Positions 7,063 through 53,713 of a DNA stretch of 64,000 nucleotides are shown in pieces. Position numbers and translations under genes: made by a program. Below the pieces are notes generated by a model. It was not told the DNA's origin. It searched no databases and saw nothing but the letters and a program-made list of their open reading frames with translations. The DNA is from Candidatus Pacearchaeota archaeon (GTDB taxonomy: Archaea > Nanobdellota > Nanobdellia > Pacearchaeales > JAHJTO01), in NCBI GenBank assembly GCA_038849525.1, contig JAWCMS010000002.1:28322-92321 (forward strand), written 5' to 3'. The stretch's first letter is position 1; each line of letters begins with the position of its first letter.

Positions 7063-7165
7063 CGCCCGGACCGAGATTTGAACTCGGGTCGGAACCGATC
7101 TGTTCAGCAATTTCTTCCGAAATTGGTTGACAGGGTTCTATGCTAGGCCGCTACACCATCCGGGC
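7063..7165 (-). tRNA. tRNA-Asp (anticodon GUC) with a ~30-nt intron at position 37/38
   Basis: Manual fold: acceptor GCCCGGA/TCCGGGC. Anticodon stem GAACC/GGTTC with loop CUGUCA interrupted by ~30 nt. T-arm CCGAG-TTCAAAT-CTCGG. Discriminator G. It is a GC-rich island in AT-rich DNA. Confidence 0.7.
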
Positions 7166-7239: not shown

Positions 7240-7944
7240 ATGATGAAAATAGCATTTATATTGCCTGTTTATAATGAAGAAAAAGATTTGAAAAAAGGTG
7301 TTTTAAAACTCTATAATTATTTAGTCTCGAATAAAATAAAATCATGGAAGATAATTATTGCAGATAATGCATCAACAGATAAAACTCCTGAGATAGGCAA
7401 ACAACTTGCAAAAAATTATACTAATGTATTTTATTTTTATTTGCCTATTAAAGGAAGAGGGTATGCTTTAAGAAAAACATATAATTCATTCAATGCAAAA
7501 ATTTATTTTTATATGGATATTGACCTCTCAACTGATTTAAACCATATAAAAGAAGTGCTGAACGAAATGAATTATAATGATATTGTAATTGGAACAAGGC
7601 TTTCGAAAAACTCAAAAGTTGAAAGAAGTTTGTTTAGAGAATTAATTTCTAGAACATACAATTTGATTGCAAGATTTTTAACAAAAACTAAAGTTTCTGA
7701 TCTTCAATGCGGATTTAAAGCCATAAATAATAAAATTATCGAAGAAGTAATTCCTTTGGTTAAGGATAATAATTGGTTTTTTGATTCTGAAATGTTGATA
7801 ATAGCAGAAAAAAGAGGATATAAGATTAAAGAAATTCCTATAAAATGGACTGATGATCCTTATTCTAAGGTTAAAATATTAGAAACTTCTTTAAATTATC
7901 TAAAAAATTTGTTACGTCTTAGAAATTTTATAACAAAGATGTAG
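7240..7944 (+). CDS. Family-2 glycosyltransferase (dolichyl-phosphate sugar transferase-like)
   Basis: IAFILPVYNEE...IIIADNASTDKT and a D.D-type motif (YMDIDLS) typical of GT2/DPM1-like enzymes. Confidence 0.75.
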   Translation: MMKIAFILPVYNEEKDLKKGVLKLYNYLVSNKIKSWKIIIADNASTDKTPEIGKQLAKNYTNVFYFYLPIKGRGYALRKTYNSFNAKIYFYMDIDLSTDLNHIKEVLNEMNYNDIVIGTRLSKNSKVERSLFRELISRTYNLIARFLTKTKVSDLQCGFKAINNKIIEEVIPLVKDNNWFFDSEMLIIAEKRGYKIKEIPIKWTDDPYSKVKILETSLNYLKNLLRLRNFITKM

Positions 7945-8677
7945 TATTAAACTTATTGAAAATTGAATATATCTTTTTTAGTGAATCCTTTGTATGATTT
8001 TTAACTTCAGACAAACAATTCGATTTTGGATACATTATATCCCCCGACTTGTTTACATGATTAAATCCTAAAACATGCAATAATTCATGCAAACCTGAAG
8101 AAGCTTCATTACTACACTGATACTCATAAAGAAATATAACCCCTTTTGTTATTATATTATATCCATTTATCGGATAGTGCTGTACAGGGCCCCCTTCTCC
8201 AAGAATTTTCCAGTGTCTTTCTGTTTCAGGCGCTTCTGAAGAAGAACTACAATAAATTAGTATATCCGCATTTTCATTTCCAATTTCTTCATTAAATTTA
8301 ATTAGATTGTCTGAATATTTTTCAACTATACTGAATGCGTCTTTCATTACTTTTTTTCTTGCGTCATCACATCCTCCAAGATAAGAATATTTCAGATTAT
8401 TAGAATACCAAATCGGATAAGAAAAAAGAGTCGGGGATTCTATATAACCAATTGTTTGCTCTGGAGGGAAGTCTAAAGGATTAACATGCATTTCTTTCTT
8501 TTCTTTACTGACAAACTCATTAGATATTTCTTTAGATGAATAATTGGATAATCCTAAAATCTCTATATGATCTTTTATTTTTGCTTTATTTTCTTCATGT
8601 TGGAGAACACAATTATTGATGCCTGCAACTAAAAACAATAAAACAATTATCAATATAACCAAAAAATCTCTTTTCAT
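7928..8677 (-). CDS. Secreted or membrane-anchored zinc metalloprotease (metzincin-like)
   Basis: N-terminal hydrophobic segment. Extended zinc-binding motif HELLHVLGFNH (HExxHxxGxxH). Confidence 0.6.
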   Translation of the reverse strand: MKRDFLVILIIVLLFLVAGINNCVLQHEENKAKIKDHIEILGLSNYSSKEISNEFVSKEKKEMHVNPLDFPPEQTIGYIESPTLFSYPIWYSNNLKYSYLGGCDDARKKVMKDAFSIVEKYSDNLIKFNEEIGNENADILIYCSSSSEAPETERHWKILGEGGPVQHYPINGYNIITKGVIFLYEYQCSNEASSGLHELLHVLGFNHVNKSGDIMYPKSNCLSEVKNHTKDSLKKIYSIFNKFNTTSLL

Positions 8678-8683
8678 ATTTTA

Positions 8684-8817
8684 TCCCGGCGGGCGGACTC
8701 GAACCGCCAACCACTCGGTTTCTTTTTTGGCTGCCTATGAATCATCTTTTTCCCGAAGGAATATCTTCATAGCGCAATAAGCTACAGCCAAGTGCTCCAC
8801 CGTTGAGCTACGCCGGG
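8684..8817 (-). tRNA. tRNA-Tyr (anticodon GUA) with a long (~59 nt) intron
   Basis: Manual fold: acceptor CCCGGCG/CGCCGGG with the archaeal Tyr identity pair C1-G72. D-arm GCTC-AACGGTG-GAGC. Anticodon stem CUUGG/CCGAG with loop CUGUAG then the intron. T-arm GGCGG-TTCGAGT-CCGCC. Discriminator A. Confidence 0.6.
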
Positions 8818-8904: not shown

Positions 8905-10302
8905 TTATTTAATTACCGTAGATCCTATAGGTGACTGCTCTGGAACAATTATAGAAAGAGAATTTGATTTTGCTTCATGTAAATTCCCTTTAGTATCTTT
9001 GTAAGTAACAAAAGTTAATGGAATAGACAATGTACCTATTATTGTAAGTTTGCTGTATACTATATAAGAGAGCATTATCTCTTCATTTTGCCCTAATCTA
9101 TCGATATGCCATATTAATGTTTTCTTTCTTATTTCTGTAGGAGAAAGGGTACCAAACTTTTCAGGTACAAGTTCAGTAAAAGCAGGTAGCCTATCAATAA
9201 TTTTTAAATCAGTCACTTCTTTTCCTTTGTTTTTTATCGCAAGAACTATTTTTGTAGCGAATACCCCTGATTTTGTTTTAACATTGACTGCTTTTTTGTT
9301 TATTTTTACTTGTGGGGTCATTATATAAATAAAAATCCATGTTGCGATAATAAGTAAAATTAATATTAAAAAGGGTAGGTAATAAGATGTTCTTGCTTCA
9401 ACAGTAAGCTTTTCTCCTGGATTCAGCTCTTTTGTAAATTCATAAATTACACTGTTTCCTTCTCTTTTAATGTTTGTTGGTTTGATATTAAAGTTTGTAA
9501 ACATTCCAGCAATAATTGATTTTTTTAAAGAAATTGTAATATCTGTTACACTATTGCCAGTGTTTTCTTTTGTTACAGTTGTTTTATAGTTTAAAAAATA
9601 ACCAGATTCTTCTGTTGTTTCTTCTACTGAAATTATCGATTTTAGCGTTATATCTTTAATTATTTTAAAATCATAATCGTCTATAGTAAATGTCGCTTTT
9701 ATTTCATATGTTCCTGCTTTTGGTAACGTACTTTTAAGCGGAACATTTAAAACAATTCCATTTTTAGTTAGTGTTACTTGTTTTGTATAGCTTAAAAGCT
9801 CAGAAACAAGAGTAAGCTCTGCATCAAGAATTGTATCTTTAGTCAAATTTATAGTTACATTAATTTCTTTTTCGTCACTTGAAATTGTTGTAGGCATTTC
9901 TAACTCAATTAAATCAGATAGAGAAATAAAATCAAGCATCATAGTACTTTTTTTAATTTCTTTTTCACCTTTTATATAATATAAAAATGAAAAACTACCA
10001 CTCTGATTAGCTCTTATCTCTTGGCTTGGATAAATTTCTCTTCTAACAGTTTTTTCACTGTTTCCTGCTACAAACACTGCATCTTTTGGAGTTATATTTA
10101 TATCAAGTAATGTGTCTATCAAGAAAATATCTGAATTTCGATTATTGTTTATAATAGTAATATCAAAAGTTGCTGGTAATGAAAGCTCTTTTATTATTAT
10201 ATTGTTTATAGCAGTTTCTTTAAGCTCTACATCTGCATTTGCAAAAGGGAATATCAGAAGAAATATTGCTACGATAATAATTATTAAACCTTCTTTTTTC
10301 AT
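8905..10302 (-). CDS. Surface/membrane protein: signal peptide, Ser/Thr/Ile-rich beta-rich ectodomain, TM helix, cytoplasmic tail
   Basis: N-terminal hydrophobic signal; TM at ...YLPFLILILLIIATWIFIYIM...; repetitive beta-strand-like composition. No catalytic motif recognised. Confidence 0.35.
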   Translation of the reverse strand: MKKEGLIIIIVAIFLLIFPFANADVELKETAINNIIIKELSLPATFDITIINNNRNSDIFLIDTLLDINITPKDAVFVAGNSEKTVRREIYPSQEIRANQSGSFSFLYYIKGEKEIKKSTMMLDFISLSDLIELEMPTTISSDEKEINVTINLTKDTILDAELTLVSELLSYTKQVTLTKNGIVLNVPLKSTLPKAGTYEIKATFTIDDYDFKIIKDITLKSIISVEETTEESGYFLNYKTTVTKENTGNSVTDITISLKKSIIAGMFTNFNIKPTNIKREGNSVIYEFTKELNPGEKLTVEARTSYYLPFLILILLIIATWIFIYIMTPQVKINKKAVNVKTKSGVFATKIVLAIKNKGKEVTDLKIIDRLPAFTELVPEKFGTLSPTEIRKKTLIWHIDRLGQNEEIMLSYIVYSKLTIIGTLSIPLTFVTYKDTKGNLHEAKSNSLSIIVPEQSPIGSTVIK

Positions 10303-11665: not shown

Positions 11666-12622
11666 ATGGTTAAAAGTGAACCGAGAAAATTGATAAAATT
11701 TGGAAATTCCTCTTATATAGTTAGCCTTCCAAAGAAATGGATAGAGAAAAACAACTTGAAAAAAGGAGATATTATCTACCTCGAAGACAACAACGATAGT
11801 CTTACTCTTAATCTTAAAGACAAAAGAAAGCCTGACAGCAAGAAAATTGTAATCTCTATGAACAATAAAGATTCTGATGAATTAAAAAGAGAGTTTACAT
11901 CAGCATATATAAATAACTATTCTGAAATTATTATTGAAGGAAAAAATGAAAGAAAGAGAGATGAGTTAATAAACAAAATTGTGCAGGAGAAAATAGGCGT
12001 AGAGATCGTAGAGCAAAATGCCGAGCAAATAGTGATAAAAGATATTCTTGACCTTGAAGCCATTTCTTTTGAGAAAATCACAAGAAGGCTTGACAATGTT
12101 GTCAGGTCAATGTTTGATGAATTAATAACTGCATTGAAAAGTGGAAATTTGAAGGAGTGGAATATAAAAGAAATCCAGCGTGCAGATTATGAAGTAAACA
12201 AACTGTATTTTCTTGTGTGGAAACTTGTAAGAAAATGTCAAGATGAGCGCACAGCACTGAGCAGCATGAAACTCAGTTCAAAGGACCTTTCAGATATACA
12301 ATGGATATCTTTACACCTTGAATACATAGGTGATGATTTGAAGAGGCTTGCGAGAAACCTCGCTGTTCTAAAGATAGATGCTGAAACTATTAAGAAAATA
12401 CTTTTGATGATACAGACTCTTGAAAAGAAATATATTACTGTAATGAATGCCTATTACTCTCTTGACAAACTGTCAGCAAGAAAAATAGCTTCATCAAAAT
12501 ATGAATTTCAAAAAAATTGTGATGCTCTTTACTTAAACCATCCTTCAGTAAGCATATCAATCGAAAAACTCAAAGGAATATCAAGCTCAATACACAACAT
12601 TTCAAAAATAATAGCATACTAA
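11666..12622 (+). CDS. AbrB/SpoVT-like swapped-hairpin domain fused to a PhoU-like helical domain (archaeal phosphate-uptake-regulator-like)
   Basis: N-terminus KLIKFGNSSYIVSLPKKWIEKNNLKKGD matches the AbrB/MazE looped-hinge helix fold. The C-terminal helical repeats resemble PhoU. A paralog lies at 56168-57106. Confidence 0.55.
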   Translation: MVKSEPRKLIKFGNSSYIVSLPKKWIEKNNLKKGDIIYLEDNNDSLTLNLKDKRKPDSKKIVISMNNKDSDELKREFTSAYINNYSEIIIEGKNERKRDELINKIVQEKIGVEIVEQNAEQIVIKDILDLEAISFEKITRRLDNVVRSMFDELITALKSGNLKEWNIKEIQRADYEVNKLYFLVWKLVRKCQDERTALSSMKLSSKDLSDIQWISLHLEYIGDDLKRLARNLAVLKIDAETIKKILLMIQTLEKKYITVMNAYYSLDKLSARKIASSKYEFQKNCDALYLNHPSVSISIEKLKGISSSIHNISKIIAY

Positions 12623-21716: not shown

Positions 21717-22499
21717 TTATTCAAAAAGACTTCTTTCAAATAAAGGTTTTATCTCTTCAAAATATTCTGCCTTACTTTCAAAATAAGCATTGTCAAATTT
21801 TTGTGTTTCAAAAAAATCAGGCATCATGGATTCTTCAAGAACTCTTCTGAACTCATCAAATTTTTTTGAGTCAGTTATGTATTTTAAAACATTATCAAGA
21901 ACTTGTATCTCCCACCCATAATCATTATATGATTTTGCTTTTTGTCTTATCTCTTCTTTTGTAGCTTTTGTTTTGAGAACATTAACAATATAATCCATAT
22001 CAAACAAATCAGAAGGTTTCATTGAACCTCTCATTTTCATTCTGTGCATTGTTGCGATTACCTTGTCAGCATAAATTTCTGAAGGATCTTCTACGAGTAT
22101 CGGAGAATATTTTCCCTCGCTTTTCTTAAATTTCTTTGGGGCACTTATTCTATCAACTTCGATTTTTCCGTTAGGCGTATTTGGTATATCTTGATTATAA
22201 GATATTCTAAAAAAATCTGTATTGTTTTTTGCTAGTTTTGGATGATACACTTTATTGTCTATGCATATATCTTTGTTAAGATCTTTTATAATATGATTCT
22301 TATAAAGATCAAATCCACCTTCTTCTATAGCAGCATCTATATCTGAAGAATATCTCGGAGATGAATAAAAAAAATGTAGCGCTGCTCCGCCTCTTATAAT
22401 GAGATTTTCTCTTGAAACGGGACTTTCCTGTATTTTGTAAAGGATATGCTCAAGTAATGAGTCTCTCTCTTTTATTAAATCTGCTCTTTGGATATTCAT
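21717..22499 (-). CDS. AbiEii/AbiGii-type nucleotidyltransferase (DUF1814, type IV toxin-antitoxin toxin family)
   Basis: N-terminal LIIRGGAALHFFYSSPRYSSDIDAAI matches the GG(T/A)AL...R.S.DID signature of AbiEii NTases. No AbiEi-like wHTH partner is seen. Confidence 0.55.
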   Translation of the reverse strand: MNIQRADLIKERDSLLEHILYKIQESPVSRENLIIRGGAALHFFYSSPRYSSDIDAAIEEGGFDLYKNHIIKDLNKDICIDNKVYHPKLAKNNTDFFRISYNQDIPNTPNGKIEVDRISAPKKFKKSEGKYSPILVEDPSEIYADKVIATMHRMKMRGSMKPSDLFDMDYIVNVLKTKATKEEIRQKAKSYNDYGWEIQVLDNVLKYITDSKKFDEFRRVLEESMMPDFFETQKFDNAYFESKAEYFEEIKPLFERSLFE

Positions 22500-24768: not shown

Positions 24769-25026
24769 ATGCAAGGTATTGTTGTAAATTTTAGAAGAGG
24801 AAAAAGAACATATAAACCAAGGCATTTCCTTATTCAAATTGAAGGAATAAATGATAGGAAAAAAGCAAAAGAATTAGTAGGAAAAATAGTAACATGGAAA
24901 TCAAGTTCTGGAAAAGAGATTAATGGAAAAATCGCATCTCCTCATGGAAATAAAGGTATTTTAAGAGTAATCTTTGAGAAAGGACTTCCAGGACAAGCAT
25001 TGACTCAGAAAGTAGAAATAAAATAA
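24769..25026 (+). CDS. rpl35ae: Ribosomal protein L35Ae
   Basis: 85 aa; MQGIVVNFRRG...GKIVTW......G.I...HG..G.LRV.F...LPGQA pattern of eL33/L35Ae. Confidence 0.85.
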   Translation: MQGIVVNFRRGKRTYKPRHFLIQIEGINDRKKAKELVGKIVTWKSSSGKEINGKIASPHGNKGILRVIFEKGLPGQALTQKVEIK

Positions 25027-25043
25027 AAATTTATACTTAAAAA

Positions 25044-25580
25044 ATGACAATAAAAAATCCGGCACCGTACAGAAAACTACAGATGCCTTATACCAGAAAA
25101 TCAAGAGTAAAAAGTAAGTCTTATATAAAGACAGTCCCTCCTGTCGCTGTTGTTAAGTTTGTGATGGGTAATTCCAAAAAATGGAATACCGACGGCTTTC
25201 AATATAAAGTTTTTATATTAAGCGAAGCTGATGGACAAATAAGAGATGTGGCTATTGAAGCTTCTAGACAGCAAATACTGAGAGAGATCACAGAAAAGAT
25301 AGGAAATGATTTTTATTTTGCTGTCTCTACCTATCCCCACCATATGCTGAGGGAACATAAGCAAGCAGCAGTTGCGCAGGCAGATAGAATGTCTCAGGGA
25401 ATGACATTAAGTTTTGGAAAGACTGCTGGAAGAGCTGCACAAGTACATAAAGGAAAGCCGATATTTATCATAGGAGTAAGCACAGAAAATGCAGTTGCAA
25501 AATTAAGAGAGATTTACAACATAACAAAAGCCAAGCTCCCTATTCCAACAAGATTTGAAGTTCAGAAAATTAAAGTTTGA
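25044..25580 (+). CDS. rpl10e: Ribosomal protein L10e (uL16)
   Basis: N-terminus ...PAPYRKLQMPYTRKS......Y...VP and about 178 aa, typical of archaeal L10e. Confidence 0.85.
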   Translation: MTIKNPAPYRKLQMPYTRKSRVKSKSYIKTVPPVAVVKFVMGNSKKWNTDGFQYKVFILSEADGQIRDVAIEASRQQILREITEKIGNDFYFAVSTYPHHMLREHKQAAVAQADRMSQGMTLSFGKTAGRAAQVHKGKPIFIIGVSTENAVAKLREIYNITKAKLPIPTRFEVQKIKV

Positions 25581-25586
25581 GAGTTT

Positions 25587-26411
25587 TTAAGGTTCTATAG
25601 GTATTATCAAAACATAATCTATAGGAATTCTTGATTTATCCTTAATTCCATTATATTCCATTATCAAATCTTCATTTGAGTTGTATTTTTTTGCTATTTC
25701 ACTTAAAATTTCATTTTTATTTGTTTTATGTTTTATAAATTTCAACTCTTTTGAATTAATATTTATTCCATACTTTTTTTGATCTTCTAATAATAATAGA
25801 AGAGATTCTATTTTGGGAATATAATTAATAGATTCTTTTTTTAGCAGATCTTCAGGAATTTCAAAAGCATTCTTTATATCAGGGTATTTTTCTAAAATTT
25901 TTTCAATTTTCTTAGTACCAGTATTATAACTCAATAAAGCAAGTTCTAAAGAATGATACTTTTTTACACAGTCTAAAATAAAATCTAATGCTGCTCTTGT
26001 AGACTTTTCTGGATTAATGCTCTCATTAATATAAGAATCATTTTTAAGTCCATAATATCTTGCTGTTTCAGGCATAAATTGTCTTGGTCCACAAGCTCCT
26101 GCAAATGATATACATTTTAAATTTCCTCTGCTTTCGACATATTCATGTGCCATAAGGAGATCAAGAAGACTTTCTTTGCTGCATTTAATACCTGCTTCAT
26201 CGAATTTTTTAACATATTCATCAACAATTTGTCTATACATTCCTTTTCTTTCATTAATCTTATTTAAACCTCTGGAAACTTCATTTATATTGTTTATATA
26301 ATACACTAACCATCTCCCAAATAAATTTGGTTTGGAAATTATTGTAGGTGTAGAAGCACTACAATTAAGTAAAATGCATAATATTAAAGCCTTAGTAAAA
26401 TTTTTTTTCAT
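25587..26411 (-). CDS. Secreted lytic transglycosylase (SLT domain) with C-terminal LysM domain
   Basis: Signal peptide. SLT catalytic region AHEYVESRGN...AGACGPRQFMPETARYYGL (E-S ... AGA-G-x-Q-x-P ... Y). C-terminal LysM-like EILSEIAKKYN...DLIMEYNGI. Confidence 0.65.
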   Translation of the reverse strand: MKKNFTKALILCILLNCSASTPTIISKPNLFGRWLVYYINNINEVSRGLNKINERKGMYRQIVDEYVKKFDEAGIKCSKESLLDLLMAHEYVESRGNLKCISFAGACGPRQFMPETARYYGLKNDSYINESINPEKSTRAALDFILDCVKKYHSLELALLSYNTGTKKIEKILEKYPDIKNAFEIPEDLLKKESINYIPKIESLLLLLEDQKKYGININSKELKFIKHKTNKNEILSEIAKKYNSNEDLIMEYNGIKDKSRIPIDYVLIIPIEP

Positions 26412-26606
26412 TTTTTTGATTCTTTTGAAATGAAGAATATTTTTTAAACTTTTTTATAAAAATTAATAATGAAAATTTTACTTTTTATTATTTAAAGTAA
26501 CAAAAGAAAAAATAATCAATAAATTAAACAGAAAAATATTTAAATAAAAATTTCTTTGAAAAACAACTAATTCTAAAGGCAAAAGGGAAACAGAGAGGTT
26601 ATAAAA

Positions 26607-26822
26607 ATGCAATCTAAAGAGAATCCTTATGGAAGGAAAGGGGATTTAACAACAAAACAAATAATAGACAGAATACTAGCACAACATTTTGATAACTCTC
26701 CAAATCGAGTTAAAACAATTGGAGAGATAGAAGATGAGATGTTGAAGATTATTTCTGAAAAAGTTAAATTTGTAGATTTTGGGAATGGAGAATCCTGCGA
26801 CTTTCCTGGAACACAGAGATGA
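26607..26822 (+). CDS. Small ORF whose N-terminal region resembles the first ~30 residues of PpsA (possible partial duplication or upstream ORF)
   Basis: TKQIIDRILAQHFDNS versus KTLINRILDEHFSQK of ppsA. Similar gga-agg-aaa-ggg motifs precede both start sites. Coding status is uncertain. Confidence 0.25.
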   Translation: MQSKENPYGRKGDLTTKQIIDRILAQHFDNSPNRVKTIGEIEDEMLKIISEKVKFVDFGNGESCDFPGTQR

Positions 26823-26940: not shown

Positions 26941-29496
26941 ATGTCTGGAAAAAGAGATGATGCCGCTGTTAAAACATTAATTAACAGAATTCTAGATGAA
27001 CATTTCAGCCAGAAAAAAGAAAAAAAACTAGAAAAAGAAAAGAAAAATCTTTTTGAAGAGAAAAAAGATATAAAGAAACTTAAGGGAAATAAGATGGAAG
27101 AAAAAAAATCTGATAAACTAATGGAAAGAAACATCCTATGGCTAAATGAGATAGGCAAGGAAGATATTAATATTGCTGGCGGCAAAGGCGCAAATCTTGC
27201 TGAAATGTATAATATAGGGTTACCTGTACCACCTGCATTTATTATCACTGCAAATGCCTTCAAGAAATTTATCGAAGACACTGGCTTAAAAGATAGAATT
27301 CTTAATGAGTTAAAAAAGATAGACATAGAAAATACTTCCTATTTAGAACAAAAAGCATCTGAAATTCAACTTATGATTACAAGACAAAAAATACCACAGC
27401 ATCTTGAAGAAGAGATTATTGAAGCTTATAACAACATGAATGTAGACTCTTCTATTCTTAAAGCGGCTTCGTCAGATGTTTTGAATATCATAAAAACTGC
27501 AAGAGAACCAATATTTGTAGCTGTCCGTTCATCAGCAACAACGGAAGATTTAAAGACAGCAAGCTTTGCTGGACAACAGGAAACTTTTTTGAATATAAAA
27601 GGTACAGCACAGCTGATAGAAGCAGTAAAAAAATGCTGGGCTTCATTATTTACAGCCAGAGCAATTTATTATAGGGAAAGAAGAGGATTCGAACATGAAA
27701 AAAGTCTGATTGCTGTAATTGTCCAAAAAATGATCAATTCAGATAAATCTGGAGTAACTTTTACAATAAATCCTGTGACAAACAATAAAGATGAGATTGT
27801 TATCGAAGCAGTTTTTGGTTTGGGAGAAGGGATTGTATCGGGAGCTATTGCTCCAGATAGATATATTGTCGACAAGCATACAAACAAAATAAAAGAAAAA
27901 TTTGTTTCATTTAAGCCAATCTATTTTACTAGGAGCAGTAGTGGTAATACTGTAAAAAGTAATTTGCCAATGGAAAAAATAAATGAACAGGTTCTTGAAA
28001 ATTATGAAATTATTAAGTTAGCAAATTATGCTAGGGATATAGAAGAACATTATGGGATCCCACAAGATATAGAATGGGCAATAGAATATGGAAAAATTTA
28101 CATTGTACAAACAAGACCTGTAACAACAGTAGAAAAGGAAATAAAAAAAGTTGATATTTCTGGTAAAATAATTCTTGATGGGCTTGCTGCAAGTCCTGGA
28201 ATTGCAACTGGGAGAGTCAGACTCATAGGAACGCTTGCAGATTTGTCAAAACTTATTCCAGGTGAAATTTTAGTAACGAAAATGACGAATCCTGATATGG
28301 TTGTTGCAATGCAAAAATCTGCTGCAATAGTCACAGACGAAGGTGGTCAGACATGCCATGCCGCAATAGTTAGTAGAGAAGTTGGGTTGCCGGCAGTTGT
28401 AGGAACAAGAAAGGCAACTAAAGTTTTACAGAATGGTCAACTAATTACAGTTGATGCCTATAATGGCAAAATTTACGAAGGGAAGGTTGAAATCCAAAAA
28501 GAAGAAAAAGCAATTGAAACAAAAGAAGAATTAAAAGTTAGCGAAGAAGTGGAGATGCCAAGTGAAACTGTAGAAGAATTTCTTGAAGAAGAAAAAATTG
28601 AAGCAGAACGAAAAATACCAAAAGTTTATATGAACTTAGGAGAACCAAATAAAATCTATGATTACAAGAATCTGCCTTTCGATGGGATAGGATTAATGAG
28701 GCTTGAATTTGTAATAGCTTATCAAATAAGACGTCATCCTTTATTTCTTATTGAATTAGGACAAGAGGACAGGTATGAAGAAGGAATTGCAAAAGGAATA
28801 TCAATTGTTGCAAAAGAAGTTTATCCAAAACCAGTAATAGTAAGATTTTCTGATTTTAAGACAAATGAGTATAGAGGATTAGAAGGGGGAAACAAATATG
28901 AAGAAGAGGAAAATAATCCAATGATAGGGTTTAGAGGAGTAAGTAGATATATAAGCAGAGAATTTGAACCAGCTTTTAGACTTGAATGCAAGGCAATTAA
29001 AAAAGCAAGGGAAAAATTAGATAATATACATGTTATGTTGCCTTTTGTTAGAACAGTAGAAGAAGTAAAGAAATGCCTTAAAATAATGAAGGAAGAGGAC
29101 TTAATAAGAAACAATACATTTAAGATATGGTTAATGGCAGAAGTTCCTTCGATTGCTTTAATTCCTGAAGAATTTGCACAACTTGATATAGATGGAGTAA
29201 GCATAGGAAGTAATGATTTAACTCAACTTATTTTAGGCGTAGATAGGGATTCTGCACTACTTGGAAGGATGGGGTATTTTAATGAAAGAAATCCTGCAGT
29301 TTTGAAGGCAATTCAAAATATAATAAAAGGATTTCATAAATATGGAAAGACTGTAAGCATATGTGGCCAAGCTCCTTCTGTGCATTCTGAAATCGTTGAG
29401 TTTTTAGTAAAAGAAGGAATAGATTCTATTTCTGTGAATCCTGATGCTGTAGAAAAAGTCAAGGAGCATATTAATAAGCTTAGTTTGAATAATTAA
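26941..29496 (+). CDS. ppsA: Phosphoenolpyruvate synthase (pyruvate, water dikinase)
   Basis: ATP-grasp N-domain (NIAGGKGANLAEMYNIGLPVPPAF). Phospho-His domain (TDEGGQTCHAAIVSREVGLPAVVGT). C-terminal PEP-utilising TIM barrel. 851 aa. Confidence 0.9.
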   Translation: MSGKRDDAAVKTLINRILDEHFSQKKEKKLEKEKKNLFEEKKDIKKLKGNKMEEKKSDKLMERNILWLNEIGKEDINIAGGKGANLAEMYNIGLPVPPAFIITANAFKKFIEDTGLKDRILNELKKIDIENTSYLEQKASEIQLMITRQKIPQHLEEEIIEAYNNMNVDSSILKAASSDVLNIIKTAREPIFVAVRSSATTEDLKTASFAGQQETFLNIKGTAQLIEAVKKCWASLFTARAIYYRERRGFEHEKSLIAVIVQKMINSDKSGVTFTINPVTNNKDEIVIEAVFGLGEGIVSGAIAPDRYIVDKHTNKIKEKFVSFKPIYFTRSSSGNTVKSNLPMEKINEQVLENYEIIKLANYARDIEEHYGIPQDIEWAIEYGKIYIVQTRPVTTVEKEIKKVDISGKIILDGLAASPGIATGRVRLIGTLADLSKLIPGEILVTKMTNPDMVVAMQKSAAIVTDEGGQTCHAAIVSREVGLPAVVGTRKATKVLQNGQLITVDAYNGKIYEGKVEIQKEEKAIETKEELKVSEEVEMPSETVEEFLEEEKIEAERKIPKVYMNLGEPNKIYDYKNLPFDGIGLMRLEFVIAYQIRRHPLFLIELGQEDRYEEGIAKGISIVAKEVYPKPVIVRFSDFKTNEYRGLEGGNKYEEEENNPMIGFRGVSRYISREFEPAFRLECKAIKKAREKLDNIHVMLPFVRTVEEVKKCLKIMKEEDLIRNNTFKIWLMAEVPSIALIPEEFAQLDIDGVSIGSNDLTQLILGVDRDSALLGRMGYFNERNPAVLKAIQNIIKGFHKYGKTVSICGQAPSVHSEIVEFLVKEGIDSISVNPDAVEKVKEHINKLSLNN

Positions 29497-33664: not shown

Positions 33665-35140
33665 TTATAATTCTCCTTTAGATTTTAATATTGCTTGAAC
33701 TTCTGCTCTTTTTAATCTTAATCTTTCAAGAACATCTGGCTCATCAAAAGGATTTGGAAAAGAGGCCATTCCTCTTGATTTCTTAAAAACATCATAAATT
33801 TTGAAACATATAGATGCTGACTCTAGCTCTGTAAGTTCACGGACAATAGATTCTTCATAGCTATCTGGAGGAATACCTTTTTCTTTTAGCATTTTCCCTT
33901 TTTCTTCCTCTTCTTTTTCAATTTCTTCAGGGGTTTTTTCCTTTTTTTCTTTCTTTTTTACCCCCCATCTTTCTTTAAAGTCTGATAAAATTCCTGAAAA
34001 CAAACCTTCTTCTTTCGGTTTTTTTTCTTCTTCATCTTTTTTTGTGTATCTTTCTATATCTTCTTTTAGAGCTTCTAGAGATTCTGTTGTAACTGCTGTA
34101 ACTGCAAAAATATCTTTCAAATCCTTTTCCTTTTTAAGATACTTCAATAAACATAATTCATCATCATTCAAGGCATAAGCTTTGAAATTAATAGTTACTT
34201 TGCCTGAATGCATTGCTTGCTGCGTTGGAAATGTCCTGAAAGAAAAATTTATTATGCCTATTTTATTGTAATTTCTTAGTTTAAGATTCTTAAATCTTAT
34301 TGGGAGGTCTTTTGCGATTACTGCATCAACAACATTGAATTTTGATTTTCCTATCAATTCAAGCTCAAGAATCATTGTACCAAATACTGAAACAAGAGAG
34401 GGGGTTTCTGTTCCTTTCATTCTCAATTCTTCTGCTGCTGTAAGATATGGTTTTACCCATTCTGTATAAAGTTTTAATGTATTAACCTGACTTTTAAGAT
34501 AGCTTTTTTCTATTTCATATCTCTTTCTCAGTTCTTTTTCGCTTAACTTTACCCATTCGAAAAATTCTGCTACTCGCGGTTTCAAAACTCTCTTTACTAT
34601 TTCATTAAGATCCATTGAGTCTACAGCTTCCGGAGAAACAGCTGCCATAAATGCAGGTCGTAATAAAGTAAATCCATACTGATGCGTCATGTTGTCTATA
34701 CTCCCCATTCCTCTTTTTGAATCTACAGTAGAGAGCCATCTCTGCTTCAACCCTAAAATACCCATTTCTCTAACTTTTGGATCAGTACTTTTCGCATTAT
34801 TATAGTCATTAAAAAGCATTTCAAATTCTTTTAGATCATAAATCAAATTAACTATAGATTTTATCAGAGTATTGACATAACCAAGAATCTTTATGCTTTC
34901 TTCTTGCATTCTTGTTGCTCTTTGACCTAATTCTGCAAAATAGCTTGAGCCAGGAGATGTCATAAAATTGTCTTTTGTTTTTGTTAGCTCATCTGAAAAA
35001 AAATTTTTTGCAAAATCAATTATCCAAAAATAAATAGGCTGTAAATTATCTATAGTCGTTTCATAGTTCAACTCATTTTCCCATACGGGCTCTTTGTATC
35101 TTGGATTTATTTTTGCAATTAATTCATCTAACTCCCCCAT
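33665..35140 (-). CDS. Hypothetical 491-aa protein with coiled-coil and charged C-terminal region
   Basis: Long ORF with coding-like composition; no catalytic motif recognised. KEKK-rich linker near the C-terminus. Confidence 0.3.
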   Translation of the reverse strand: MGELDELIAKINPRYKEPVWENELNYETTIDNLQPIYFWIIDFAKNFFSDELTKTKDNFMTSPGSSYFAELGQRATRMQEESIKILGYVNTLIKSIVNLIYDLKEFEMLFNDYNNAKSTDPKVREMGILGLKQRWLSTVDSKRGMGSIDNMTHQYGFTLLRPAFMAAVSPEAVDSMDLNEIVKRVLKPRVAEFFEWVKLSEKELRKRYEIEKSYLKSQVNTLKLYTEWVKPYLTAAEELRMKGTETPSLVSVFGTMILELELIGKSKFNVVDAVIAKDLPIRFKNLKLRNYNKIGIINFSFRTFPTQQAMHSGKVTINFKAYALNDDELCLLKYLKKEKDLKDIFAVTAVTTESLEALKEDIERYTKKDEEEKKPKEEGLFSGILSDFKERWGVKKKEKKEKTPEEIEKEEEEKGKMLKEKGIPPDSYEESIVRELTELESASICFKIYDVFKKSRGMASFPNPFDEPDVLERLRLKRAEVQAILKSKGEL

Positions 35141-35762: not shown

Positions 35763-36041
35763 ATGGTATTTGAATGGCTCAAAAAAAAGCCTATAGAGAG
35801 GGTAGAAGGCAGAGAGATAGAAATAAAAACGGATACAAAGGAAGAAGATATAACTAAAAAAGCAATAGAAAAAAGCGAAGAACAGATTAAAGATCAAGAA
35901 AAAAGGGAAAAAATAAACAGATTTATTTCAAGAATTTCAGCAATAATGGAAAGAATCGAACTGCTTGAAAGGAAGATGGATAGAGTAGAAAGCAGATTAG
36001 GAATAAAAGATGAGGCGAAAAGAAGTGAAGAAAAGAAATAA
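35763..36041 (+). CDS. Small charged coiled-coil protein
   Basis: 92-aa Lys/Glu-rich ORF that overlaps the lspA start. Coding status is uncertain. Confidence 0.25.
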   Translation: MVFEWLKKKPIERVEGREIEIKTDTKEEDITKKAIEKSEEQIKDQEKREKINRFISRISAIMERIELLERKMDRVESRLGIKDEAKRSEEKK

Positions 36042-36459
36042 TAAGAAAGAGGAATACAATTATGAATACCTATTTTTGCTATTTGCAATAATTGTATTTA
36101 TAGACAGGATACTAAAGACTTTTTTGAGAGAGGGATGTTTTTATAAGTTTTGCATAAAAAAAGCGATAAATACCGGGGCAGCATTTGGAATATTTCCAGG
36201 GATGACATGGTTTTTTATTGCTATCGCTATAGTGATACTTATTTCAATAATTTTGTTTATTAATGAATTTGGGAAAACAGCGAGAATCGCACTAGTGTTT
36301 ATAGCAGCAGGAACCACTGCAAATCTTATTGATAGGATTTTTTTTGGTTATGTAATAGATATTCTTTCTGTTTTCGGTTCTTCTTCATTTAATCTGGCAG
36401 ATGTAAGTAATTGTATAGGAGCGATTATTCTTATTTATAGTTTAATTAGAAAAAAGTAA
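36010..36459 (+). CDS. lspA: Lipoprotein signal peptidase (signal peptidase II)-like membrane protein
   Basis: Four TM segments with NTGAAFGIF and ...GYVIDILSV...FNLADVSN motifs (NTGAAFG / VVDF...FNVAD of LspA). Confidence 0.55.
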   Translation: MRRKEVKKRNNKKEEYNYEYLFLLFAIIVFIDRILKTFLREGCFYKFCIKKAINTGAAFGIFPGMTWFFIAIAIVILISIILFINEFGKTARIALVFIAAGTTANLIDRIFFGYVIDILSVFGSSSFNLADVSNCIGAIILIYSLIRKK

Positions 36460-42842: not shown

Positions 42843-43373
42843 TTAACCTATATAACTATTTTTATTTTTATTTCCTTTTTCTATCTGTATCATATCAAGC
42901 ATAGAAGATTTTTGTTTTAACAAAAATTTGCCTTCCATATTAATATGAAGTCTCAGAATGTTAAAACCTGAAAGAAGAGTAAAATTCCATATTAATTTTT
43001 CTGATTTTTTCAGCCTTTGAAGGATTGCTATTATCTTGGATAGATTAAAATTTTGTTTTTCAGCTTCTTTTTTTGCTATTTCTATTGCTTTGTTTAGATC
43101 AATTTTTATCTCATCTTTTTTTATCTCTTTAAGTTCTTCTTTTTTTATCATTTCTGCTTTTTTAGGGATTATTTTTTGATCGAGAATGAAAGTCATTATA
43201 CCTTCTTCTTTTGAAATATAATAATCAAGCTGTTTTTTTTCTTCATTGTTGTCATAGTCAAAAACAAAAAAAGCTGCACAGAAATATGATTTTGGATGCT
43301 TTTTCTTGAATTTTATGAATTCTGAAGAATTTTCAAGATTTGTGAATAGATCACTCAGATTTAAAGAGGTCAT
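42843..43373 (-). CDS. Hypothetical protein
   Basis: 176-aa ORF immediately downstream of thrS. No motif recognised. Confidence 0.3.
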   Translation of the reverse strand: MTSLNLSDLFTNLENSSEFIKFKKKHPKSYFCAAFFVFDYDNNEEKKQLDYYISKEEGIMTFILDQKIIPKKAEMIKKEELKEIKKDEIKIDLNKAIEIAKKEAEKQNFNLSKIIAILQRLKKSEKLIWNFTLLSGFNILRLHINMEGKFLLKQKSSMLDMIQIEKGNKNKNSYIG

Positions 43374-45107
43374 TTATTTTTTCTCCTGAATCTCCTTCTG
43401 AAGATCTTTTATGAAATCATCTATTTTTATACCATATTTCACTTTTCCATCCCTAGTCCTAACTGCAATAGTATTATTTTCTTCTTCTTTCTTTCCGATT
43501 ACTATCATATAAGGAATCTTTTCCATCTGGCTATCACGAATTTTGGATTGAATAGTAGTGGATGAATAATCTGTTTCGACTCTAATATCAAGTTCTTTAA
43601 GCATATTTTCAATTTTTTGTGCATATTTTATGTTTTTATCAGTCAATGTCATTATTTTAACTTGAATAGGAGAAAGCCATGTTGGAAATGCACCTGCATA
43701 GTGCTCTATTAAAATTGAAAAAAATCTTTCTAAAGAACCAAGCATTGCACGATGTATCATTATTGCACGATGTTTTTGATTGTCTTCACCTATGTACTCT
43801 ATATTAAATTTTTCTGGAAGATTAAAATCGAACTGTATAGTTGAGCATTGCCATTCTCTTCCTAAAGAATCGAAGAGTTTAATATCTATTTTCGGTCCAT
43901 AAAATACTGCTTCACCTTCTGCTACCTTATAATTTATTTTTTTCTTTTTTAATGCTTTTTCAAGACTTTTTTCAGCTAAAGCCCACATTTTATCTGTTCC
44001 CAAATATTTTGATTTATTTTTTGGATCTCTAACAGATAAATCTGCTTTGAAATTGTTAAATCCAAAAGTTTTAAGGAAAAAAAATACAATGTCTAGAAGT
44101 TTTTCGATCTCTTCTTCTGCTTGTTCAGGAGTACAGATAATATGTGCATCATCTTGAGTAAATCCTCTCACTCTACCTAATCCATGAAGAGTTCCTGATA
44201 GTTCTTTTCTGTAAACTGTCCCAAGTTCACAATATTTTATTGGTAGTTCTTTATAACTTCTTTGTTTTGACTTGTAGATATAAATATGAAACGGACAATT
44301 CATCGGCTTCATCATGAATTCTTCATTATCAAGTTGCATTGGAGGATACAGATAGTCTTTATAAAATTGTAAATGACCAGAAGTTTTCCATAAGCTTATT
44401 TTTCCAATATGAGGGGTATAAACATAAAAATAACCTTTTTTCCTATGTTCGGCTTTCCAGAAATCTTCTATGACTTGTCTTATAATTGCCCCTTTAGGTG
44501 TCCAGATTGGTAATCCAGAGCCTATTTCTGGATAGATAGCAAACAAGTCTAGTTCTTTTCCAAGTTTTACATGATCTCTCTTGGCTGCCTCTTCTCTTCT
44601 CTTTAAAAAATCTTTCATTTCAGATTCTGAAGCGAATGAAATTCCATAGATCCTTTGTAACATAGGTTTTGACGAATCACCTCGCCAATATGCGCCTGCA
44701 GTACTTAGCAGTTTGACAGCTTTAATTTCACCTGTATTCTTAATTAAAGGACCAGAGCACAGATCAATAAATTCTCCATGTTTATAAAAGGAAATTTTGT
44801 TTCCTTTGATTTCGCTTAAAAGTTCAAGCTTATATGGTTGATCTTTAAGTAATTTTTCAGCTTCCTTTCTCTTAAGAAAAATATGCTTGAATTCGAGATT
44901 TTGCTTGATAATTTTATACATTTCGGCCTCTATCTTCTCAAGGTCTTTAGGAGTAAAAGGTTCTGTATCGAAATCATAATAAAAACCCTCATCAATTGCT
45001 GGTCCAATTGCTAATTTGGCATTTGGCCTTAGTCTTTTGACAGCATCAGCCATAACATGACTTGTAGAATGCCAAAAAGCTTCCATACGCTCTTTTTCTT
45101 TTGTCAT
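43374..45107 (-). CDS. thrS: Threonyl-tRNA synthetase (class II, bacterial-type architecture lacking the N-terminal TGS extension)
   Basis: N-terminal WHSTSHVMADAV (second-additional/editing-domain His motif); class II core (RGFTQDDAHI, ...GPKIDI...); C-terminal anticodon-binding domain. Confidence 0.85.
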   Translation of the reverse strand: MTKEKERMEAFWHSTSHVMADAVKRLRPNAKLAIGPAIDEGFYYDFDTEPFTPKDLEKIEAEMYKIIKQNLEFKHIFLKRKEAEKLLKDQPYKLELLSEIKGNKISFYKHGEFIDLCSGPLIKNTGEIKAVKLLSTAGAYWRGDSSKPMLQRIYGISFASESEMKDFLKRREEAAKRDHVKLGKELDLFAIYPEIGSGLPIWTPKGAIIRQVIEDFWKAEHRKKGYFYVYTPHIGKISLWKTSGHLQFYKDYLYPPMQLDNEEFMMKPMNCPFHIYIYKSKQRSYKELPIKYCELGTVYRKELSGTLHGLGRVRGFTQDDAHIICTPEQAEEEIEKLLDIVFFFLKTFGFNNFKADLSVRDPKNKSKYLGTDKMWALAEKSLEKALKKKKINYKVAEGEAVFYGPKIDIKLFDSLGREWQCSTIQFDFNLPEKFNIEYIGEDNQKHRAIMIHRAMLGSLERFFSILIEHYAGAFPTWLSPIQVKIMTLTDKNIKYAQKIENMLKELDIRVETDYSSTTIQSKIRDSQMEKIPYMIVIGKKEEENNTIAVRTRDGKVKYGIKIDDFIKDLQKEIQEKK

Positions 45108-53105: not shown

Positions 53106-53354
53106 ATGGGAAGAAAAAGGATTATTAAGATTCCTAAATCTGTAAAGATTAAATGTCCTCACTGTGGTAAAAAAAATTTAATAAAAATGCCAAAGGAGAA
53201 TATTTATTTTTTTGAGTGTAAAAAATGCAAAAATAAAATTGAAACTCCACAAAGCCAATGTTGTATTCTTTGTGCTTACAGCAATTCAAGATGTTATAAT
53301 GAATTGATAAGAACAGCACAAAGAAATGAGCTTGAAGTAAGACAAATAAAATGA
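53106..53354 (+). CDS. Small zinc-ribbon protein
   Basis: CPHCGKK...ECKKCKNK...CCILC. Multiple CxxC pairs in 82 aa. Confidence 0.4.
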   Translation: MGRKRIIKIPKSVKIKCPHCGKKNLIKMPKENIYFFECKKCKNKIETPQSQCCILCAYSNSRCYNELIRTAQRNELEVRQIK

Positions 53355-53713
53355 AAAAAGTATTATTATTATTCTTATTATTATCTTTTTTGTTTATAAT
53401 AGGAATGAGCGGATGCCATCAGACTTCAGTAAAAGAAAAAGAAGAACAAAAACAGCAAATTCCTACAATGCATGTAATTAAAATAAAGGAATTTAAATTT
53501 CAGCCATCTGAAATAATAATACATCGAGGTGATAGTATAGTATGGATAAATGAGGATCCTTATCCTACAGTACACACAGTATCTGCTTATGACTTATCAT
53601 ACAGCTTTAAAATGATTTACGGACAAAATGCGACAAAAATATTTAATGAATCTGGGACATACGAATATTACTGCGCTGTTCATGGAGAAAAAGGAAAAAT
53701 AATTGTAAAATGA
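53351..53713 (+). CDS. Cupredoxin (plastocyanin/azurin-like blue-copper protein), secreted and possibly lipid-anchored
   Basis: Signal peptide ending ...IIGMSGC. Type-1 Cu ligands H (HTVSAY...) and C-x-x-H-x-x-x-x-K/M (YYCAVHGEKGK). Confidence 0.65.
   Translation: MKKVLLLFLLLSFLFIIGMSGCHQTSVKEKEEQKQQIPTMHVIKIKEFKFQPSEIIIHRGDSIVWINEDPYPTVHTVSAYDLSYSFKMIYGQNATKIFNESGTYEYYCAVHGEKGKIIVK

What the first reader, a model, noticed from the sequence alone, without database searches (positions are those of the whole stretch)
25587..26411. Bacterial-type lytic transglycosylase (SLT) with LysM domain encoded by an archaeon
Archaea lack murein, yet this secreted protein has the SLT catalytic Glu-Ser and AGAxGxxQxxP...Y motifs plus a LysM peptidoglycan-binding module. 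Elsewhere in the window are signal peptidase II (36010-36459), a secreted metzincin (7928-8677), a bacterial-architecture ThrRS and a candidate lipobox-like cupredoxin. This fits horizontally acquired bacterial envelope-targeting genes, as proposed for episymbiotic DPANN archaea that attack or attach to bacterial hosts.
Basis: partly seen in the sequence, partly recalled or inferred. Interest (0 to 1): 0.5.

Follow-up and report, generated by a model that had tools for sequence, protein, structure and literature searches.

The report
MltD-like murein lyase in Pacearchaeota

Summary
The ORF at 25587-26411 (-) is real. It encodes a 274-aa protein with an N-terminal signal or anchor peptide, an SLT/GH23 catalytic domain and one C-terminal LysM domain. 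The AlphaFold model (pLDDT 93) superposes over its whole length on P. aeruginosa MltD (catalytic domain plus LysM1, TM about 0.7). Nine of the eleven MltD catalytic or ligand-contacting residues I mapped are kept, including the Glu-Ser pair. The host is archaeal: L35Ae, L10e, a thermosome and intron-containing tRNAs flank the gene, and NCBI labels the identical protein Pacearchaeota. The gene is not a chimera or a recent transfer. Its codon usage is native. It sits in the same slot, between PEP synthase and L10e/L35Ae, in four other independent contigs. The compact family forms one clade (93/100 bootstraps) among bacterial MltD-like proteins. It evolves faster than its neighbours (35-47% against mostly 60-78% identity) while the active site stays fixed. 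The likely function is extracellular cleavage of bacterial peptidoglycan. Whether that means attacking a host or scavenging debris is untested. GH23 enzymes in Pacearchaeota and Woesearchaeota, and the bacterial-host hypothesis, are already published. A side observation: the lineage has bacterial-type LspA, and a relative has Lgt.

The parts
25587..26411 (-). Complete gene for a 274-aa compact MltD-like (family 1D-like) lytic transglycosylase with one LysM domain
   Evidence: ORF. Pfam SLT and LysM. AlphaFold pLDDT 93.4. Foldseek top hits are P. aeruginosa MltD 8rhe/8rhf/8rhi, E about 6e-12, TMq 0.69-0.72 over about 256 columns.
26352..26411 (-). N-terminal export signal, residues 1-20 (MKKNFTKALILCILLNCSAS). 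It is either a lipoprotein-type signal (LLNC17, atypical Asn at -1) or a signal peptidase I site after SAS20.
   Evidence: Basic n-region plus hydrophobic helix 4-15, low pLDDT, disordered residues 16-29. The closest homologs have a Cys in the same region; more distant ones do not. No signal-peptide predictor was available, so this is inferred.
25761..26324 (-). Catalytic domain, residues about 30-217: N-terminal helical module, SLT core and the C-terminal helix carrying E193/Y197
   Evidence: Helices 30-214 at pLDDT 97-99. Aligns with the PaMltD catalytic domain.
26130..26135 (-). Codons for catalytic Glu93-Ser94 (the 'ES' motif I of family 1 lytic transglycosylases)
   Evidence: Sequence 'gaa agc'. 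Aligns to PaMltD E144-S145. Invariant in the compact family.
25596..25742 (-). Single C-terminal LysM domain, residues about 224-272, corresponding to the catalytic-domain-attached LysM1 of PaMltD
   Evidence: Pfam LysM residues 230-271. Beta-alpha-alpha-beta fold in the model. The whole-length superposition on MltDcat-LysM1 includes it.
26412..26606 (.). 195-bp AT-rich divergent intergenic region between the lytic transglycosylase gene and the conserved small ORF plus PEP synthase; presumed to hold the promoters
   Evidence: Sequence read. TATA-like runs (TTTATAAAAAAG, TTTAAAAAATA) lie 27-49 nt upstream of the ATG and there is no Shine-Dalgarno-like motif. This is weak evidence because the region is very AT-rich. 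Not tested.
36010..36459 (+). Bacterial-type lipoprotein signal peptidase (LspA), a possible processing enzyme if the lytic transglycosylase is a lipoprotein. The link is inferred.
   Evidence: Pfam Peptidase_A8, E=5.6e-21, 75.7 bits against cutoff 25. The NLIDR and FNLAD Asp motifs are present. A syntenic copy is in L003. Homologs at 60-72% identity occur in many related metagenomic contigs, and more distant hits are named Woesearchaeota or Nanoarchaeota.

Best explanation
The gene encodes an active, exported, minimal version of the bacterial lytic transglycosylase MltD (family 1D, GH23). It consists of the catalytic domain plus the single LysM that packs against that domain, without the long N-terminal linker and the mobile extra LysM repeats of bacterial MltD. 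An ancestor of a Pacearchaeota/Woesearchaeota clade acquired it once from bacteria, and it has been inherited vertically since.

Proposed mechanism: the N-terminal signal takes the protein across the single archaeal membrane. It is then either released or held at the surface, possibly lipid-anchored at Cys17 and processed by the lineage's bacterial-type LspA. The LysM domain and the long groove bind GlcNAc-MurNAc glycan strands. Glu93 acts as the acid/base for non-hydrolytic cleavage of the MurNAc-beta-1,4-GlcNAc bond, giving 1,6-anhydro-MurNAc ends. No peptidoglycan synthesis genes were seen in the roughly 64 kb window or the roughly 95 kb of related contigs held here, so the substrate is most likely bacterial peptidoglycan. 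That would open or loosen the wall of a bacterial partner or prey at the contact site.

Shown: domain identity, fold, intact active site, archaeal genomic context, single origin, vertical inheritance and native composition. Inferred: export, activity, substrate and ecological role.
For: Pfam SLT and LysM. The best PDB sequence hit is MltD 8rhe (E=4e-9). AlphaFold pLDDT is 93.4, and Foldseek matches PaMltD cat+LysM1 over the whole length at TMq 0.69-0.72.

PaMltD functional residues E144, S145, G159, Q162, T167, Y214, N215, E245 and Y249 map through the alignment to E93, S94, G108, Q111, T116, Y162, N163, E193 and Y197. All are kept. E93/S94/Q111/Y162 are invariant in the family.

The context is archaeal, and NCBI labels the identical protein Pacearchaeota. 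The same slot (PEP synthase, small ORF, lytic transglycosylase, L10e, L35Ae) recurs in four other independent contigs. The compact family is monophyletic in 93 of 100 NJ bootstraps among 345 MltD-like cores. Codon usage is native.

Orthologs are 35-47% identical where most neighbouring genes are 60-78% identical, with the active site fixed. This is typical of an extracellular protein under purifying selection on catalysis. No Mur, PBP, MraY or MurG genes were seen in the window or in the related contigs. The published interpretation of GH23 enzymes in these phyla is the same.
Against: There is no biochemical or expression data. The host or partner of Pacearchaeota is unknown, and no physical association with bacteria has been shown. 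A small, possibly membrane-tethered enzyme could not reach the sacculus of a diderm bacterium without first breaching the outer membrane. The lipobox is atypical (Asn at -1) and absent in more distant family members. Two PaMltD ligand-contact residues differ (Y195 to F144, R154 to F103). Y197 is Phe in 3 of 12 family members. LysM also binds chitin and other GlcNAc glycans. Only about 160 kb of the lineage's DNA was inspected for peptidoglycan synthesis genes.
Confidence: 0.6

Rival explanations
1. Same enzyme and chemistry, but the purpose is nutritional scavenging. The secreted lytic transglycosylase solubilises peptidoglycan from dead bacteria (necromass), so that amino sugars and stem-peptide amino acids can be taken up by an organism with very limited biosynthesis.
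For: Pacearchaeota are metabolically reduced, and peptidoglycan from dead cells has been proposed as an amino-acid source. Muramoyl-tetrapeptide carboxypeptidase is reported as common in Pacearchaeota genomes. A small soluble enzyme with one LysM suits diffusible action. Debris poses no outer-membrane access problem.
Against: No anhydro-muropeptide uptake or catabolic genes (AmpG, NagZ, AnmK, MurQ, LdcA) were detected in the window or related loci, though most of the genome was not seen. The fast sequence divergence fits interaction with a variable partner somewhat better than bulk polymer digestion. A released enzyme benefits competitors too.
Confidence: 0.22
2. The substrate is not bacterial murein but another GlcNAc-containing glycan. 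Candidates are a wall or surface polymer of the archaeon itself, the envelope glycan of an archaeal host, or chitin. The protein then serves in self-envelope remodelling or attachment.
For: Known DPANN hosts are archaea (abstract). LysM binds chitin-type glycans, and PaMltD binds chitotetraose in its groove. The gene behaves like a stable core gene next to ribosomal protein genes, as expected for a housekeeping function.
Against: Formation of the 1,6-anhydro product and the conserved family-1 residues are specific to MurNAc-GlcNAc chemistry in every characterised member. Chito-oligosaccharides act as substrate mimics rather than substrates. No synthesis genes for such a polymer were seen nearby. 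Pseudomurein has beta-1,3 links and talosaminuronic acid (my own knowledge, not tested here). No homologs from pseudomurein-containing methanogens appeared among the named hits.
Confidence: 0.1
3. The catalytic domain is retained mainly as a binding module. On this reading the protein is an adhesin that holds the archaeon to peptidoglycan-bearing cells rather than an enzyme that degrades them.
For: LysM plus a long glycan-binding groove would give affinity for peptidoglycan. Castelle et al. proposed a role in attachment for the large DPANN lytic-transglycosylase proteins.
Against: The catalytic Glu-Ser pair and the residues that position it are strictly conserved across a family that has otherwise diverged to about 30% identity. 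That argues for selection on catalysis.
Confidence: 0.05
4. Artefact or mobile origin: a bacterial or phage gene present through mis-assembly, contamination, a provirus or very recent transfer.
For: SLT domains are common in phages and conjugative elements. An AbiEii toxin gene lies about 3 kb away.
Against: The gene lies between archaeal L10e and PEP synthase on a 162-kb contig. The same arrangement occurs in four other independent assemblies. GC3 and codon usage are native. Viral contigs give only SLT-core matches of 25-39% identity with no full-length relatives. No integrase or phage genes are adjacent.
Confidence: 0.02

Closest known systems
MltD, membrane-bound lytic murein transglycosylase D (family 1D of lytic transglycosylases, GH23); structures 8RHE/8RHF/8RHI of P. 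aeruginosa MltD
   Same: The fold is the same over the whole mature protein (TMq about 0.7), including the N-terminal helical module and a LysM packed against the catalytic domain. The ES, G-x-x-Q, AYN-type and E-x-x-x-Y motifs are kept, as are the residues that contact bulgecin A and sugars. Like MltD it is exported with an N-terminal signal, and bacterial MltD is a lipoprotein.
   Different: It has 274 aa against 450-550 aa. It has one LysM where PaMltD has four, and it lacks the long N-terminal linker. Sequence identity is only 20-23% in the structural alignment and about 30-37% to the best bacterial cores. It scores 50 bits against NCBIfam's MltD equivalog cutoff of 508. Motif II is GPRQ rather than GLWQ. 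It is encoded by an archaeon in which no murein synthesis genes were seen. The lipobox is uncertain.
[quoted passage not shown] 2021; earlier Rinke 2013 and Castelle 2015; GH23 in Lake A Woesearchaeota)
   Same: The same phyla, the same catalytic superfamily (SLT/GH23), and the same proposed role in binding or degrading bacterial cell walls.
   Different: Those proteins are described as large, up to about 3,000 aa. This one is a 274-aa MltD-like protein with LysM that forms its own small clade (about a dozen 50%-identity clusters). I did not compare sequences with fam00969, so the relationship between the two is untested.
Second small SLT protein family seen in related DPANN contigs (L088:5518-6438 and L004:6269-7384, next to ThrRS)
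   Same: A small archaeal SLT-domain protein with an ES motif, in the same contigs as group-B members of the compact family.
   Different: It has no LysM. Similarity is confined to the SLT core (38% over 56 residues). It is absent from this window.
Phage and secretion-system SLT proteins (for example T7 gp16 and tape-measure-associated SLT domains)
   Same: They share the SLT catalytic core.
   Different: Only the core of about 80-120 residues matches, at 25-39% identity. They lack the MltD-type N-terminal module and the LysM arrangement. The genomic context here is not viral.

Membership tests
Family 1 lytic transglycosylases (SLT domain, PF01464, GH23) | Significant match to the SLT domain model above the curated threshold | tested here: met
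   PF01464 at E=1.4e-16, 60.5 bits against cutoff 21.3.
Family 1 lytic transglycosylases (SLT domain, PF01464, GH23) | [quoted passage not shown] | tested here: met
   E93-S94 aligns to PaMltD E144-S145. It is invariant in the compact family and lies at the end of helix 79-94 in the model.
Family 1 lytic transglycosylases (SLT domain, PF01464, GH23) | Non-hydrolytic cleavage of MurNAc-GlcNAc giving 1,6-anhydroMurNAc | not testable with these tools
   Needs an enzyme assay on sacculi with LC-MS of the products.
Subfamily 1D (MltD-like) | MltD-type catalytic domain fold with the extra helical region, and a LysM domain packed on the catalytic domain | tested here: met
   The top six Foldseek hits are all PaMltD chains, with about 256 aligned columns and TMq 0.69-0.72. 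The next hits (Cj0843, MltE, Slt) reach TMq of 0.42 or less. For the LysM1 description.
Subfamily 1D (MltD-like) | Consensus motifs and ligand-contact residues of MltD (G159LWQ, T167, Y195, Y214-N215, E245, Y249) | tested here: met
   The equivalents G108-P-R-Q111, T116, Y162-N163, E193 and Y197 are kept. Deviations: LW to PR inside motif II, Y195 to F144, R154 to F103.
Subfamily 1D (MltD-like) | Equivalog-level similarity to E. coli MltD (NCBIfam NF008050) | tested here: not met
   50.1 bits against cutoff 508, matching only the core. It should therefore be called MltD-like rather than an MltD ortholog.
Subfamily 1D (MltD-like) | Multiple C-terminal LysM repeats and a lipoprotein anchor | tested here: inconclusive
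   It has one LysM only. A Cys17 follows the hydrophobic region, but the lipobox LLNC is atypical. LspA is present in the genome. No predictor or experiment was available.
LysM domain (PF01476) | Match above the curated threshold and a beta-alpha-alpha-beta fold | tested here: met
   E=6.4e-7, 29.7 bits against cutoff 20.9. Strand 224-229, helices 236-242 and 247-254, strand 267-272.
   Outside the compact DPANN family, all named close hits are bacterial MltD-like proteins. This rival is rejected.
Published DPANN GH23 'murein-like lytic transglycosylase' proteins (fam00969) | Large (up to about 3,000 aa) extracellular multidomain protein with an SLT-like domain | tested here: not met
   274 aa with two domains. 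No direct sequence comparison with fam00969 was possible.

The most novel reading that the evidence does not exclude
The compact MltD-like enzyme may be one component of a complete bacterial-style cell-surface toolkit working in an archaeon. In this reading it is a true lipoprotein, diacylglyceryl-modified by a bacterial-type Lgt and cleaved by bacterial-type LspA. Both enzymes were recently stated to have no archaeal homologs. It would be displayed on a membrane that in these lineages may contain bacterial-type lipids, and used as a contact-dependent wall-opening device on bacterial hosts. That would make Pacearchaeota cross-domain episymbionts of bacteria, with an enzyme whose specificity could reveal the host's peptidoglycan type.
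Probability: 0.12. Interest if true: 0.7.

Novelty: new member of a known kind. Interest (0 to 1): 0.3.

Why it matters
The hosts and lifestyle of Pacearchaeota are unknown. A peptidoglycan-cleaving enzyme that has been kept in one chromosomal slot through deep divergence, with a frozen active site and a fast-evolving surface, is good evidence that interaction with bacterial cell wall is a long-standing, selected trait of this clade rather than sporadic gene pickup.

At about 27 kDa when mature, with two domains and a high-confidence model, the protein is far easier to express than the roughly 3,000-aa DPANN lytic transglycosylases discussed in the literature. Its activity and its preference among peptidoglycan chemotypes could therefore be measured and used to narrow down candidate hosts.

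The idea itself (GH23 enzymes in Pacearchaeota and Woesearchaeota, implying bacterial partners) has been published since 2013-2021, and NCBI already annotates this protein as a lytic transglycosylase. The gain is incremental.

Tried and rejected
1. Contamination, chimera or recent transfer. Rejected by synteny in four other independent contigs and by native GC3 and codon usage.

2. Viral or provirus origin. The viral-contig scan gave only SLT-core matches at 25-39% identity, and there are no phage genes nearby.

3. Pseudomurein enzyme. No such homologs were found.

4. A second SLT gene in the window. A six-frame HMM scan found none. The ORF downstream of ThrRS (42843-43373) is unrelated to the SLT protein that occupies that position in L088.

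5. Taxonomic census through genome contigs. A first attempt with the 12-sequence alignment had no usable conserved stretch.

6. Metagenome scans. The single-protein query found nothing. The alignment query recovered only two close members already known. The word-indexed profile search missed most family members. The family size estimate therefore rests on the exhaustive representative search.

7. Donor lineage. The sister group of the archaeal clade changed between bootstraps, so the donor is unresolved. My tree is NJ on 145 columns aligned to an HMM built from the archaeal family, which could inflate its monophyly.

8. Peptidoglycan synthesis or recycling genes near the gene. None were found in the window or related loci, but whole genomes could not be searched.

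Full report
**1. The observation**

Pfam finds an SLT domain (PF01464, E=1.4e-16, residues 78-175) and a LysM domain (PF01476, E=6.4e-7, residues 230-271), both well above the curated thresholds. By sequence, the best solved structure is the Pseudomonas aeruginosa MltD construct 8RHE (E=4e-9, residues 90-273). These matches are far beyond chance.

**2. The host is an archaeon and the gene belongs to it**

- The gene is convergent with L35Ae (24769-25026) and L10e/uL16 (25044-25580) and divergent from PEP synthase (26941-29496).
- The window also holds a thermosome, a TGT-family tRNA-guanine transglycosylase, and a class-Ic Glu/Gln-family tRNA synthetase.
- Two tRNA matches of 103 and 134 nt cover the full 71-position tRNA model, which implies introns.
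- The identical protein is in NCBI as 'MAG: lytic transglycosylase [Candidatus Pacearchaeota archaeon]' on a 162,650-bp contig.
- Composition is native. GC is 25.5% and GC3 is 14.2%, against window means of 30.7% and 22.7%. The gene's synonymous-codon choices fit the rest of the window better than 61 of the 65 other genes. There is no compositional sign of recent import.

**3. Relatives**

An exhaustive HMMER search of 1.84 billion cluster representatives gave 8,864 hits at E<=1e-3 but only 6 at E<=1e-30.

- About a dozen clusters are full-length relatives: 270-370 aa, one SLT and one LysM, 31-47% identical.
- Everything else is a longer bacterial MltD-like protein with several LysM repeats that matches the core only, at about 30-37% identity.
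- In the GTDB species-representative scan, named matches came from Bacteroidota, Proteobacteria, Nitrospirota, Myxococcota and others.
- Viral contigs gave only SLT-core matches at 25-39% identity.

**4. Synteny**

I looked up the contigs encoding six family members (P0048, P0051, P0056, P0058, P0198, P0200).

- Four of them (L003 from GCA_053535015.1, L005, L087, L089) show the same order as the window: PEP synthase, a conserved ORF of about 70 aa, the SLT/LysM gene, L10e, L35Ae and a roughly 600-aa nucleotidyltransferase. L089 ends within the gene that matches L10e (78% identity), so L35Ae and the nucleotidyltransferase are not visible there.
- L003 extends the shared order out to the AP-endonuclease-like gene, a 490-aa ORF, LspA and the class-Ic synthetase gene.
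- In these genomes most neighbouring orthologs are 60-78% identical to the window's, with a few as low as 28-54%. The SLT/LysM ortholog is only 35-47% identical.
- A second subgroup (P0056 and P0060/P0200, in L004 and L088) sits in a different but also archaeal context: an archaeal-type ThrRS with tRNA-Thr_ED, SRP54, PTH2 and class-I LysRS.
- An NJ tree of 345 MltD-like core regions recovers the compact archaeal family as one clade in 93 of 100 bootstraps. Its sister group is unresolved.
- Caveat on the tree: it uses a distance method on 145 columns, and the alignment was guided by an HMM built from the family itself.

Together these results indicate one old acquisition from bacteria followed by vertical descent. 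They rule out a chimera, contamination or a recent transfer.

**5. Structure and active site**

AlphaFold2 with a 45-sequence alignment gives mean pLDDT 93.4 and pTM 0.86. The model shows an N-terminal helix (residues 4-15), a disordered linker (16-29), an all-helical catalytic domain (30-214) and a beta-alpha-alpha-beta LysM (224-272). The six best Foldseek hits against the PDB are all PaMltD chains (E about 6e-12, TMq 0.69-0.72, about 256 aligned columns). The next-best lytic transglycosylases (Cj0843, MltE, Slt, MltF) match only the core, at TMq of 0.42 or less.

The PaMltD paper describes the crystallised unit as a catalytic domain (76-266) with LysM1 (279-325) 'intimately associated'. It names E144-S145, G159LWQ162, T167, Y195, Y214-N215, E245 and Y249 as catalytic or ligand-contacting residues. 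Carrying these through the HMMER alignment (offset 55) gives the following.

| PaMltD residue | This protein |
|---|---|
| E144, S145 | E93, S94 |
| G159, Q162 | G108, Q111 |
| T167 | T116 |
| Y214, N215 | Y162, N163 |
| E245 | E193 |
| Y249 | Y197 |
| Y195 | F144 (differs) |
| R154 | F103 (differs) |

Within the archaeal family, E93, S94, G96, Q111, L159 and Y162 are invariant. The protein is therefore a minimal MltD: the catalytic domain with its attached LysM1, without the long N-terminal linker and the mobile LysM2-4. It is not an MltD equivalog by NCBI's criterion (50 bits against a cutoff of 508), so 'MltD-like, family 1D-like' is the accurate label.

**6. Export**

The N-terminus, MKKNFTKALILCILLNCSAS, has a basic n-region and a hydrophobic core. 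It then offers either a lipobox-like LLNC17 (Asn at -1 is atypical) or a small-x-small site (SAS20) for signal peptidase I.

- The closest relatives have a Cys in this region (for example GILAC in P0002). More distant relatives do not.
- The genome does have a bacterial-type LspA (36010-36459; Pfam 75.7 bits; NLIDR and FNLAD Asp motifs intact).
- A cupredoxin in the window has a canonical MSGC lipobox.
- The matrixin-like protein has INNC, again with Asn at -1.

Lipid anchoring is plausible, as it is for bacterial MltD, but it is not established.

**7. Function**

I saw no peptidoglycan synthesis genes in the window or in about 95 kb of related contigs. The literature treats these archaea as lacking murein. 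The most economical reading is an extracellular enzyme acting on bacterial peptidoglycan. A frozen active site combined with a rapidly diverging remainder fits a surface or secreted protein under selection for catalysis.

- The data cannot tell whether the enzyme opens the wall of a living bacterial partner or prey, or solubilises wall debris for nutrition.
- Action on another GlcNAc glycan is a less likely rival.
- A purely adhesive role is also less likely.

**8. What is already known**

- Castelle et al. [quoted passage not shown] They cite Rinke 2013 and Castelle 2015 for earlier cases.
- GH23 genes are reported in Lake A Woesearchaeota with a predation hypothesis and in three DPANN MAGs from oxygen-deficient zones.

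What this analysis adds is threefold.

- The protein belongs to a distinct, compact MltD-like family.
- That family has a single origin and a fixed chromosomal slot.
- Its active site is intact and its composition is native.

**9. Verdict**

This is a real feature, correctly identified. It is a new member of a known kind. Interest is modest at 0.3. The main practical value is that the protein is a tractable target for testing whether and how Pacearchaeota act on bacterial walls.

Noticed in passing
window 36010-36459 (+); L003:1234-1668; L088:1-429: The window encodes a bacterial-type lipoprotein signal peptidase LspA (Pfam Peptidase_A8, 75.7 bits, both catalytic Asp motifs present). Homologs occur in many related metagenomic contigs at 60-72% identity, and more distant hits are named Woesearchaeota or Nanoarchaeota in NCBI. 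A related DPANN contig carries PF01790 Lgt. [quoted passage not shown]
   Followed up: partly
window 53351-53713 (+), 7928-8677 (-), 25587-26411 (-): The cupredoxin has a canonical lipobox (IGMSGC). The matrixin-like protease (…AGINNC) and the lytic transglycosylase (…ILLNC) both have Asn at the -1 position before the Cys. This may be a lineage-specific lipobox variant or a coincidence.
   Followed up: no
window 43374-45107 (-): ThrRS is of the bacterial type (tRNA_SAD editing domain; NCBIfam TIGR00418 at 729 bits, against the archaeal model PRK03991 below its cutoff). Related DPANN contigs L004 and L088 carry the archaeal type with tRNA-Thr_ED.
   Followed up: partly
L088:5518-6438 (-) and L004:6269-7384 (-): A second, unrelated small SLT-domain protein (306-371 aa, no LysM, ES motif present) sits next to ThrRS in the group-B DPANN contigs. 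Some DPANN therefore carry two small lytic transglycosylases. No counterpart exists in this window.
   Followed up: partly
window 26607-26822 (+): A small ORF of 71 aa between the lytic transglycosylase and PEP synthase is conserved (52-78% identity) at the same position in all four syntenic contigs. It has no Pfam or NCBIfam match. Its KQIIDRILAQHF stretch resembles TLINRILDEHF at the N-terminus of the adjacent PEP synthase ORF.
   Followed up: no
window 7063-7165 (-) and 8684-8817 (-): Two tRNA genes found by Rfam but not by ARAGORN are 103 and 134 nt long yet cover the full tRNA model, which implies introns.
   Followed up: no
window 21717-22499 (-), 11666-12622 (+), 56168-57106 (+): There is an AbiEii-type toxin nucleotidyltransferase gene, and two roughly 315-aa proteins with a MazE/AbrB-like N-terminus (one also has a PhoU domain). 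Similar MazE-PhoU proteins recur in the related DPANN contigs.
   Followed up: no
window 8905-10302 (-), 45206-46573 (+), 33665-35140 (-): Three 455-491-aa ORFs have no Pfam match. The first two carry N-terminal signal-like hydrophobic segments and may be surface proteins. The third (33665-35140) showed no such segment, but it is conserved at 61% identity in L003.
   Followed up: no
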